Position numbers and translations under genes: made by a program | Source of the DNA: Phoronis australis | Lineage: Eukaryota > Animalia > Phoronida | Assembly: GCA_002633005.1 (NCBI GenBank) | Contig: NMRA01000120.1 | Span: 1 to 64,000, forward strand | Length of the DNA stretch: 64,000 nucleotides | Reading direction: 5' to 3' | The notes under the pieces: model-generated | Told to the model about the DNA's origin: nothing | Database searches by the model: none | What the model saw: only the letters and a program-made list of their open reading frames with translations | Shown: positions 27,901 to 30,900 of the stretch, piece by piece | Numbering within the stretch: position 1 is the stretch's first letter | How the letters are laid out: each line of letters begins with the position of its first letter

Positions 27901-30900
27901 CCCTATTGTGAAGCAGAAAAACTAGCATGCAAATCAATATCGCCACAAGCAATCAAGTTTGTTAGTGGCAAAATAACAACGGCTACCAACTTACTTTTCT
28001 TAACAGATGGAGTGCTCTGTTTGGCTGACGAACACAGAAACATTGTCATTAGGGCAAGTATATTTAAATTTCTAAAACGCAGAAACAAACTCTAAAAATA
28101 TATACTGGGAAAGTCTGCCACAGAAAATAAGGAGACAAACCCTTTGATAGCCTTTGGTTGTAAGCCTGCGCACCCTGCACGGTCTAGCATCGTTCCGCCC
28201 TCTTTCAATTTTATCAAGTGGAGAACCTTATTGGGGCATCTGAACTGCTAAAAAACGATATTTCTGATACCAAGCAGGGGCACCAGAGGCACTTGTTGAT
28301 TGGGGTCGACACTTACCATATTGTATTTGTGTCGATCACTTTATATGCAAGTGTTGGATGAAATGTCAAATGAATATACATAATGTAGTGGTTGTTTGTC
28401 ACAGGTAAATTGGGATTTGGAATTTTCATGGTGGCATTCCAGATCTAGATTTTAAAATCCCATCCGCAATAAACTGGAAGTGAGCAAATAACGCAACATG
28501 CACTTTCAAAAGTGAACATTCTCAAAACTAGAGGCTGGGCATTTAACAGAAGTGTTGTTAACTGGATTACTAAGTTAAGGTATTTTGCATTCAGGTATAC
28601 ACTAACATCATTTCTAAAATCTAATGGCACTTTATTTTTCAAGGTCTTCAAACATTGTTGCGAATGGTCTGAATTTTTCAAAATATTGTCTGCTGGAAAC
28701 TATGGTATTGAACTTGAATATGGCAAAGCCTTATTTTGGTACTATGTACAACTTACAAAAACATATTAGGAAAAAATATATTACCTGTCTTAAACTGGTT
28801 ACATTTTACCATACTTAAACCAAGCTCTAGTCTATTTACATTCATTTGCCAATGTAATTAGGCAAGCGGTTGGTGTAAACATAACAATAGATTTTAGAAA
28901 TGATGTTACCTCATGTAACCACCTCAAAGTGGTTTTTGGAAGACAGCGACATACCAATTGAACCAAGGACTGGGGAGGTACAACAATTCTCAACGGGACA
29001 AGTGTAACACACAGGCCTCTCAAGGGCACAAGTGTAACACACAGGCCTCCCAAGGGGACAAGTGTAACACAAAGGCCTCCCAAGGGGACAAGTGTAACAC
29101 ACAGGCCTCTCAAGGGGACAAGTGTAACACACAGGCCTCCCAAGGGGACAAGTGTAACGCAAAGGCCTCTCAACAGGACAAGTGTAACACAAAGGCCTCT
29201 CAACAGGACAAGTGTAACACAAAGGCCTCTCAACAGGACAAGTGTAACACAAAGGCCTCTCAAGGGGACAAGTGTAACGCACAGGCCTCTCAAGGGGACA
29301 AGTGTAACGCACAGGCCTCTCAAGGGGACAAGTGTAACACACAGGCCTCTCAAGACCACCTGACTCATATTGAGCCACTTTAGAACTGCCCACCATGCCT
29401 AGTCACATGACATTCCCAAGAATAGGACTACAGGTCTATACGCAACCATAATACACAAGAATAATGAGATGGACTAGACAGTATGAACAAAATTTCAATT
29501 GATGGACAACCAACTTACTTTGGGCATTGATAACCATATTCACGTAGTTTCCTACAAACACGACCACATGGAACAATGTCGACTACAACGAATGGTTGCC
29601 ATGTTAAAGGGGTTATAATCCCGTCTTTCGGCAAAAAATGTAACTTTTGATTTAGAGCACTTGCTATTACAAAACTGATCTTAATTTATTCCTTACTCAG
29701 ATAAGAGCCAATTGCTGGACTAGAGAAGAACTGAGACTTGGTAATTGGTTGAAATCCGGCTTGATATGCTGGCTTGACACGGAGGGTCAATTTATGTGCC
29801 AGCGATGGTCTCAAATGCAACTAAACTGTTCCTCATTTGAGTAGGGGACAAGCTGAGTAAGTTGTCTAAATCAAATGTCAGTTTTTGGCAGCAGAGGCTG
29901 AGCTAACAGCTGCTTTATTGTTGTCAATAATTTTCATTACGTACTGGAAAAGAACCGCCATCATTATTTTAAAGTTAGTTAAAATTTACACCTTGAACAG
30001 TGGTTTAACACTTGCCAAAATGGCATACAGCATACACTTACAGGCCTCCATAGTCAACTCCATCTGTGCCGGCTCATAGGAGCGGTCCACAGCCGTGCGG
30101 AAGCTCTCATTACAGCCACGCCCCCTGGCCACTCTGTTAGGAGGTTTGTGTAGTTTTTTCTCCTCTGGAACACCAACCGTCTACAAGAAATAAAGAAATA
30201 TTGTTGTATTGAGCTTCATATAAGCATACATCGAAGCACCCTTAATCTACAACTTCACCTTCTTCACTTCGAGACACTGAAGCGGAATCGATAAAACGAC
30301 TTGGCTATCCATGTTTTCACGAAAACAACAACGGATTTAAAACTTGACATGTTTCGGTGTCATTTATTAAACACCATCCTCAGAAGTCATAATACAGTGG
30401 CCACCTAGCTAGGCCCAGCAACAAGTAATGAAGCACAGATACAGTCAGTTACAGGGAGTGACAATGAACTATACCAACAATGACAACCTGTGGTGTGTCA
30501 GTTGCCTATTGAGATTGGGCTTGCACCAACTGATATGTAAAGCCTCACGAATTTTAAGCTCCTTTGTTGTTACTGCCTGGTCTATTATTGCAAAGTCATT
30601 GAAAGAGCACTGCTGATAACAATGATTGGAGCTCTGCAGGTGAATANNNNNNNNNNNNNNNNNNNNNNNNNNNNNNNNNNNNNNNNNNNNNNNNNNNNNN
30701 NNNNNNNNNNNNNNNNNNNNNNNNNNNNNNNNNNNNNNNNNNNNNNNNNNNNNNNNNNNNNNNNNNNNNNNNNNNNNNNNNNNNNNNNNNNNNNNNNNNN
30801 NNNNNNNNNNNNNNNNNNNNNNNNNNNNNNNNNNNNNNNNNNNNNNNNNNNNNNNNNNNNNNNNNNNNNNNNNNNNNNNNNNNNNNNNNNNNNNNNNNNN

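What the first reader, a model, noticed from the sequence alone, without database searches (positions are those of the whole stretch)
30341..30388. Sense-strand ribozyme 160 nt upstream of a Par-3 acceptor, paired with its own antisense copy
The left hammerhead is in the Par-3 pre-mRNA orientation, close to the acceptor at 30180. Its core is CUGAGGA with an extra U, GAAA and a self-complementary ACAUGU stem III, the type thought to need dimerisation. Each strand has only one copy, and the pre-mRNA transcribes the antisense arm first, so a ~295-bp duplex would mask the ribozyme. Inference: the inverted geometry self-silences the ribozyme, and could also be an ADAR or endo-siRNA substrate or alter splicing.
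Basis: partly seen in the sequence, partly recalled or inferred. Interest (0 to 1): 0.7.

Follow-up and report, generated by a model that had tools for sequence, protein, structure and literature searches.

The report
Inverted Penelope stub in Par-3 intron
The ribozyme motif is real, but it is the standard end-piece of an abundant Penelope-type jumping gene whose two truncated ends sit back to back in a Par-3 intron; pairing of the two arms is predicted to mask a motif that would likely be idle anyway, so this is an ordinary insertion footprint rather than a regulatory device.

Summary
Observation confirmed: a minimal type I hammerhead at 30341-30388 (-) with an exact mirror at 31190-31237 (+), in 297-bp perfect inverted arms inside a Par-3 intron. 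Each arm is the 3' end of a Penelope-like retrotransposon: it encodes the C-terminus of an RT-linked GIY-YIG endonuclease. The family is very abundant. Only one arm carries the ~29-nt family 'tail', and a 12-nt duplication flanks the unit. Inverted pLTRs, tail, TSD, the extra core nucleotide, opposite-strand pairs and inactive monomers are all published (PMC4209133, PMC3846280, PMC8557442). In another family with the same core, 63 of 83 copies are head-to-head. Masking is predicted but probably redundant. A 319-N gap separates the arms, so 'one copy per strand' and duplex length are unproven; the right junction was not seen bridged. Family RNA shows likely A-to-I editing, not tied to this locus and known for Penelope. 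No evidence for altered splicing. This scan noted the same thing in many other genomes. Low interest.

The parts
30316..30646 (-). Left arm: 5'-truncated 3' end of a Penelope-like element (endonuclease C-terminus, 3' region/pLTR, hammerhead), ending at the family's short end without tail; runs into the gap
   Evidence: (unique-flank contig runs 29450-30343 into the arm in X1 and X2; many unrelated flanks attach at 30316)
30469..30645 (-). Last 58 codons and stop of a GIY-YIG endonuclease domain of an RT+EN ORF
   Evidence: 379 hits at E<=0.001; long hits P0141, P0028 carry RVT_1; GIY-YIG matches below the curated cut-off in 6 of 14 proteins scanned; 50% identity to the C-terminus of P0028
30341..30388 (-). 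Minimal type I hammerhead motif in pre-mRNA sense; predicted cut after C30346
30647..30965 (.). Assembly gap of 319 N; holds the inversion junction and an unknown amount of element
30966..31262 (+). Right arm: exact inverted copy of 30316-30612 (last 47 endonuclease codons to the stop at 31109, then pLTR)
31190..31237 (+). Mirror hammerhead motif; antisense in the Par-3 pre-mRNA; predicted cut after C31232 on a + strand transcript
31263..31291 (+). ~29-nt 'tail' extension present on the right arm only
   Evidence: 96 and 109 RNA reads of other copies continue past 30316 with this sequence; other copies end at 31288-31291
30306..30317 (+). Left copy of a 12-nt direct repeat, likely target-site duplication (overlaps the arm by 2 nt)
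   Evidence: 16 of 20000 random position pairs reach 12 nt
31289..31300 (+). Right copy of the 12-nt direct repeat (overlaps the tail by 3 nt)
   Evidence: (D10)
30042..30180 (-). Par-3 coding exon (139 nt) downstream of the insertion; expressed in RNA runs X6 and X7
30181..32462 (-). Host intron (2282 nt including the gap), GT...AG, phase 0
   Evidence: (X5 contig stops at 32463)
32463..32542 (-). Upstream Par-3 coding exon

Best explanation
This is two truncated 3' ends of an abundant endonuclease-bearing Penelope-like retrotransposon lying head to head in a Par-3 intron, likely from one recent insertion; each end carries the family's standard minimal hammerhead, which is predicted to be locked in arm-to-arm duplex and would likely be idle anyway. 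Shown: endonuclease C-terminus plus hammerhead in each arm, very high family abundance, tail on one end only, 12-nt flanking repeat, left junction. Inferred from published PLE biology: the element's endonuclease cut the target with a ~12-nt stagger and its reverse transcriptase made two cDNAs from two start sites about 29 nt apart, one per target end, both stopping early, which gives the inverted pair, the one-sided tail and the duplication. With both 3' ends pointing outward, any read-through from either side makes the antisense arm first, so masking follows from geometry and needs no selection. The long duplex is probably an ADAR substrate like other transcripts of the family, with little effect expected on Par-3 splicing.
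For: Arm peptide matches C-termini of RT+GIY-YIG ORFs. Summed DNA depth over the arm is 3e4-1.8e5 against 37 in the unique flank in X1 (not a copy number). Family ends map to 30316 and 31288-31291, exactly the two ends of this unit. 12-nt repeat at both junctions, 16 of 20000 by chance. Five opposite-strand joints are listed in RNA of other family copies. In a different family with the same core, 63 of 83 copies have an upstream inverted partner, 0 only downstream, 8 a tandem partner. PMC3846280 (passages): inverted pLTR, 31-bp tail, 8-10-bp TSD, head-to-head most frequent. PMC4209133 (results and discussion): extra nucleotide between 9 and 10.1, palindromic helix III, opposite-strand pairs ~100-700 bp apart, single motif inactive. 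PMC11167929 (main text): tail lies between two RT start sites; hammerhead cleaves only with protein. Folding.
Against: The inversion junction is hidden in the gap. No listed X1 contig bridges the right junction, and depth there is 12.5 against 47-52 in other unique intron stretches (the tool warns that holes prove nothing). No empty allele was seen directly. RT, linker and the GIY-YIG motif itself are not in the sequenced arms, and Pfam does not hit the 58-aa piece. The 113 metagenome loci gave no tblastn hit to the two PLE ORFs tried, so their PLE identity is inferred from structure alone, and several come from related assemblies. The aggregate excess of A>G/T>C in RNA over DNA was mostly not significant (Fisher p 0.03-0.37).
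Confidence: 0.88

Rival explanations
1. Assembly artefact: one element copy was placed on both sides of a scaffold gap, so the inverted pair and the duplex do not exist.
For: Arms are 100% identical and flank an N gap; such structures are known to trouble short-read assemblies (PMC8557442, passage); right junction not seen bridged and of low depth in X1.
Against: A duplicated contig would not create a tail on one side that ends where other family copies end, nor a 12-nt repeat at both junctions; Par-3 exons are collinear across the gap. The perfect identity and the gap size may still be assembly-made.
Confidence: 0.05
2. The gap is much larger than 319 nt and hides a partial tandem (pLTR-ORF-pLTR), so one strand carries two hammerheads that could dimerise and cut.
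For: The typical PLE unit is a tandem plus an inverted 5' copy (PMC8557442, PMC3846280); collapsed repeats can distort gap estimates; a tandem joint is seen in other copies (30491->30431).
Against: The gap is given as 319 nt; in the comparison family inverted partners lie 77-594 nt upstream and only 8 of 83 have a tandem partner; dimers cleaved only weakly in vitro (PMC4209133). This is a variant of the best explanation, not a different kind of object.
Confidence: 0.08
3. The insertion has been co-opted: the hairpin gates ribozyme cleavage, or acts through editing or siRNA, to tune Par-3 splicing or level.
For: Sense hammerhead 165 nt from the acceptor; intact core; likely editing in family RNA, including about a third of sense reads at the stem I adenosine 30344; inverted Penelope copies yield siRNA in Drosophila (PMC3681739, passages); timing of an intronic ribozyme matters for CPEB3 (PMC10274809, start of abstract only).
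Against: Identical arms and an intact duplication point to a very young insertion; the geometry is the family default; the ribozyme is predicted unfolded even without the antisense arm; polypyrimidine tract and candidate branch points are outside the 297-bp duplex; no read evidence could be tied to this locus.
Confidence: 0.03

Closest known systems
Inverted-pLTR insertions of EN+ Penelope-like elements (Pen2a_Av and Pen2 derivatives, PMC3846280; general scheme in PMC8557442)
   Same: Head-to-head inverted ends, ~30-nt tail on one end only, short TSD, C-terminal GIY-YIG endonuclease, 5' truncation, poor short-read assembly.
   Different: Here only about 330 nt per arm is sequenced, TSD is 12 nt (8-10 in those examples), the centre is unknown, and the family is unnamed.
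[quoted passage not shown]
   Same: Short helix I (5 bp), long helix II, unpaired nucleotide between A9 and G10.1, G10.1-C11.1 pair, tiny palindromic helix III, pairs on opposite strands.
   Different: Nothing of kind; the pair is about 850 nt apart if the gap size is right (published ~100-700 bp). Activity not tested here.
PAc Poseidon element of Anolis (PMC11167929)
   Same: Hammerhead in the pLTR next to a tail whose two ends match element end points.
   Different: PAc was studied as a tandem, active element; this copy is a truncated inverted stub with no ORF start shown.
Non-LTR retrozymes (bioRxiv 10.64898/2026.07.22.740005; part 1 of 5 and passages)
   Same: Type I hammerhead, PLE-related, found in introns though depleted there.
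   Different: Retrozymes are non-coding tandem repeats; this unit is inverted and keeps endonuclease coding sequence.
ADAR-edited and siRNA-producing Penelope repeats (PMC5625713 lizard; PMC10636886 Xenopus tropicalis; PMC3681739 Drosophila; passages)
   Same: Family transcripts on both strands with likely A-to-I changes.
   Different: Shown here only at family level, with RNA and DNA from different individuals; no small-RNA data.

Membership tests
EN+ Penelope-like element | C-terminal GIY-YIG endonuclease on an RT-containing ORF | tested here: met
   58-aa arm peptide matches the C-terminus of RVT_1-bearing ORFs P0141 and P0028; conserved His, Glu and Asn present. By homology; the GIY-YIG motif itself is not in the arms.
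EN+ Penelope-like element | Telomerase-related RT in the same copy | not testable with these tools
   Truncated or in the gap; tblastn with four PLE ORFs hits only the two arms; no genome is held.
EN+ Penelope-like element | pLTR in tandem or inverted arrangement with 5' truncation | tested here: met
   297-bp head-to-head arms; left junction bridged; right junction rests on the assembly, tail and TSD.
EN+ Penelope-like element | 30-40-nt tail on one end | tested here: met
   ~29 nt at 31263-31291, family sequence, absent from the left arm.
EN+ Penelope-like element | Short target-site duplication | tested here: met
   12-nt repeat at both junctions, 16 of 20000 by chance; empty site not seen.
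EN+ Penelope-like element | Dispersed multicopy family | tested here: met
   Depth about three orders above unique flank, many different flanks at the element end.
Penelope/Poseidon clade (versus Neptune, Nematis, Hydra) | CCHH motif in EN, no CX2-5CxxC linker, DKG motif | tested here: inconclusive
   Only in homologues: 0 of 10 hits long enough have the linker, 8 of 10 have the His pair, DKG in the three long ORFs. The window copy lacks these regions; no tree built.
Minimal type I hammerhead (min-HHR) | CUGANGA / GAAA / NUH core with helices I and II | tested here: met
   A second family has the same core with four of five stem I pairs changed on both sides yet paired.
Minimal type I hammerhead (min-HHR) | Extra nucleotide between 9 and 10.1; palindromic short helix III | tested here: met
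   U at 30376/31202; ACAUGU palindrome, predicted intermolecular duplex -6.0 kcal/mol.
Minimal type I hammerhead (min-HHR) | Self-cleavage (as dimer or with protein) | not testable with these tools
   No read ends piled up anywhere on the arm (table 6: none), but these are ordinary RNA-seq libraries, so this says little.
Rfam hammerhead families | Covariance-model hit | tested here: not met
   0 hits; also no hammerhead family listed on 8 loci with the same core, so the models are insensitive to this form.
Non-LTR retrozyme | Tandem non-coding repeats, one hammerhead per unit | tested here: not met
   Inverted, not tandem, in the sequenced part, and carries coding sequence; gap content unknown.

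The most novel reading that the evidence does not exclude
Head-to-head PLE insertions are ribozyme-silent in both directions because the antisense arm is always transcribed first, and ADAR edits the resulting duplex, including the hammerhead stems. If tandem sense copies can dimerise and cut pre-mRNA, selection would purge them from introns while letting inverted stubs like this one through: insertion geometry would act as an intron-tolerance filter and as the main source of family-wide dsRNA, editing and siRNA. A young, possibly polymorphic copy 135 nt from a Par-3 acceptor would be a clean allele-level test.
Probability: 0.12. Interest if true: 0.4.

Novelty: new member of a known kind. Interest (0 to 1): 0.13.

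Why it matters
As it stands it matters little: one more young inverted Penelope-like stub, a form that is published and abundant. It is useful as a textbook-complete example (tail, TSD, minimal hammerhead) and as a pointer that this family's transcripts are likely A-to-I edited in this invertebrate. It would matter more only if orientation and arrangement of PLE hammerheads were shown to decide whether a copy is tolerated in an intron.

Tried and rejected
Rfam scans of the window and of the locus: no hit; judged uninformative. Pfam on the 58-aa peptide and on the exon: nothing. Word-indexed protein search with the 58-aa peptide: 4 candidates, none significant; the full HMMER scan then found 379 (the top hit P0001 is a repetitive protein and was ignored). 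No whole genome held, so no copy census, no full-length element and no intron-orientation test. Run search: no RNA holder listed. A covariance model from the metagenome loci was not built: they were fetched with a pattern taken from this motif, so a hit would be circular. tblastn of two PLE ORFs on the 113 loci: 0 hits. The two arms were laid separately, so no joint across the whole unit could be seen. Cryptic splice-site scan of the arms gave only two weak acceptors and one weak donor. Earlier-finding look-ups by sequence and by place returned nothing. A six-term paper search (Penelope, hammerhead, antisense, double-stranded, intron, inverted) found 0 papers; that is the only basis for saying the masking argument was not found in print, and the library lacks most subscription papers. 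Rejected: retrozyme (not tandem, has coding sequence); DNA transposon or MITE with terminal inverted repeats (arms are retroelement 3' ends with an asymmetric tail); chance motif.

Full report
Observation. On the - strand, 30388 to 30341 holds a 5-bp stem I, CUGAGGA, one extra U, a 5-7-bp stem II, GAAA, a two-pair helix III with palindromic loop and the GUC cut triplet. The same 48 bases recur on the + strand at 31190-31237. A descriptor scan finds only these two sites in 64 kb, and none of 100 dinucleotide-shuffled windows gives a site with stems this long. The two motifs lie in arms that are perfectly complementary over 297 bp, 30316-30612 and 30966-31262, separated by a 319-N assembly gap. 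The host is Par-3 on the - strand; the intron runs 30181-32462 and the predicted cut is 165 nt upstream of the acceptor. Rfam finds nothing here, but it lists no hammerhead family on 8 other loci with the same core either.

What the arms are. Read towards the hammerhead, each arm begins with an open frame ending in a stop (58 codons on the left arm, 47 on the right). Pfam and the word-indexed search missed this piece, but a full HMMER scan gave 379 proteins at E<=0.001. Of 14 of these scanned with Pfam, the two longest carry RVT_1 and six have GIY-YIG matches below the curated cut-off; the piece is 50% identical to the last 56 residues of the RT-bearing P0028. This is the RT-then-GIY-YIG layout of endonuclease-positive Penelope-like elements. 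Homologues lack the Neptune/Nematis linker (0 of 10 long enough to test) and mostly keep the His pair (8 of 10), which points to Penelope/Poseidon, but the window copy lacks those regions, so the clade is not shown. Summed contig depth over the arm is 3e4-1.8e5 against 37 in the unique flank in run X1 (the tool warns this is not a copy number), so the family is very abundant.

Insertion signature. Family copies end at two points. Contigs with unrelated flanks attach at 30316 (12 in X1, 14 in X2), while 96 and 109 RNA reads continue there with a ~30-nt extension; that extension is what the right arm carries at 31263-31291, and other copies diverge at 31288-31291. So the left arm ends at the short end and the right arm has the tail. 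A 12-nt direct repeat sits at both junctions (30306-30317, 31289-31300); 16 of 20000 random position pairs reach that length. PMC3846280 (passages) describes the same unit: inverted pLTR, 31-bp optional tail, 8-10-bp TSD, head-to-head as the most frequent arrangement. PMC8557442 (passages) generalises it and notes the assembly problems. PMC11167929 (parts 1-2 of 4) shows the tail lies between two reverse-transcription start sites. PMC4209133 (parts 1-2 of 4) describes the minimal hammerhead with the extra nucleotide and palindromic helix III, pairs on opposite strands ~100-700 bp apart, no cleavage by a single motif and low cleavage by dimers. I did not open these papers' supplements.

The geometry is the default. 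RNA from other family copies shows five listed opposite-strand joints and one tandem joint. A pattern scan of metagenome contigs returned 113 loci from 4 of 64 parts of the collection. They belong to a different family (only one 42-nt blastn match to the arm; 0 of 113 hit two PLE ORFs) with the same core and a different stem I: four of five pairs differ on both sides from the window's yet pair (93-112 of 117 paired per position). Of 80 loci of at least 1 kb, 51 have an inverted repeat at the motif. After removing duplicates and copies with under 300 nt upstream, 63 of 83 have an inverted partner upstream, none only downstream, 8 a tandem partner. Several loci come from related assemblies, so these are not fully independent counts.

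Is the inverted pair real? The left junction is bridged: a unique-flank contig runs unbroken from 29450 into the arm to 30343 in X1 and X2 (one sample, possibly the source of the window). The right junction is not shown: no listed X1 piece spans it and depth in 31304-31367 is 12.5 against 47-52 in other unique intron stretches. Tail and TSD are hard to make by mis-assembly, so I put the artefact at about 5%, but the perfect arm identity and the gap size may be assembly-made, and the gap could hide more element, including a second same-strand hammerhead.

Masking. In the pre-mRNA strand the minimum-energy fold pairs all 297 arm bases, including all 48 of the hammerhead (duplex -83 kcal/mol for that part against -9.9 for its own fold). 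For transcripts ending just after the motif, stem I and II probabilities are 0. It is also generic, since outward-pointing 3' ends give antisense first from either direction, and probably redundant: the sense arm alone has stem I probability 0.011. The last 135 nt of the intron, with the polypyrimidine tract and candidate branch points, lie outside the 297-bp duplex. The exon is expressed in X6 and X7 and an X5 contig stops exactly at the upstream donor, but whether those individuals carry the insertion is unknown.

Editing. Exon reads show that first-mate-on-+ reads come from - strand RNA. Among the rows shown (40 of 112, 40 of 55), eight A>G or T>C changes inside the element are rare or absent in DNA contigs (under 0.1% of depth): 30335, 30337, 30339, 30340, 30344, 30426, 31250, 31255. 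All eight are enriched on the strand whose RNA has A there, in both RNA runs laid (9-42% of reads; per-site Fisher p from 0.02 to 8e-11), and 7 of 8 have a 5' A or U neighbour. I dropped six A>G/T>C rows that are common in DNA. Against this: five changes of other kinds that are rare in DNA are also strand-biased, so divergent expressed copies can mimic the pattern; the aggregate comparison with DNA was mostly not significant (p 0.03-0.37); RNA and DNA come from different individuals; and the reads come from the whole family, not this locus. I call it likely A-to-I editing of family transcripts. Heavy editing of Penelope is already reported in lizard and Xenopus tropicalis (PMC5625713, PMC10636886; passages), and siRNA from inverted copies in Drosophila (PMC3681739; passages).

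Verdict. A real minimal hammerhead in an ordinary, young, head-to-head Penelope-like stub. Retrozymes are reported as depleted from introns in Xenopus (bioRxiv 10.64898/2026.07.22.740005; part 1 of 5 and passages; its supplements were closed), which leaves room for the untested idea that inverted copies are better tolerated than tandem ones; one six-term search found no paper making that case. This scan's notes hold 429 findings with these words in at least 47 genomes, several reaching the same reading (unchecked). Interest 0.13; new member of a known kind.

Noticed in passing
window 30210-30289 and 31304-31367: RNA run X7 has low pre-mRNA-strand coverage (depth 2 and 2.7) on both flanks right beside the insertion and none at 31496-31623. 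This would fit fragments from an empty allele in that individual; no joint was seen.
   Followed up: no
window 30306-30313 versus 31283-31290: The target site shares 8 nt with the reverse complement of the element's tail (208 of 20000 random sites reach this), making a 14-nt palindrome at the right junction. Could reflect target preference or priming microhomology, or chance.
   Followed up: partly
window 31228-31291 (+): The AUG inside the helix III palindrome opens a frame of 21 codons through the tail, about 12 to the pLTR end, like the 12 and 22 residues reported for Pen2a_Av (PMC3846280). If it is the ORF start, cleavage after 31232 would cut off the start codon. Not verified.
   Followed up: partly
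window 30341-30388: Family variants listed within the motif fall at N7, loop II and stem I; none of the rows shown is at an invariant core position (72 rows hidden).
   Followed up: partly
window 31669-31932: Nested inverted repeats (41- and 33-nt arms) with multicopy depth at one end, MITE-like, in the same intron.
   Followed up: no
window 28898-29437 and 33493-33731: A 30-nt and an 18-nt minisatellite in neighbouring Par-3 introns.
   Followed up: no
window 36310-36687 and 54034-54513: Two stretches give near-identical spurious translations, so a dispersed repeat is present twice in the window.
   Followed up: no
L001-L113: Metagenome contigs carry an abundant, older family of short fold-back elements with the same hammerhead core; about 2200 stored stretches estimated. 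No ORF was linked to them.
   Followed up: partly
window 31396-31480 and 32605-32654: Short multicopy repeat fragments in the host introns, with reads on both strands.
   Followed up: no
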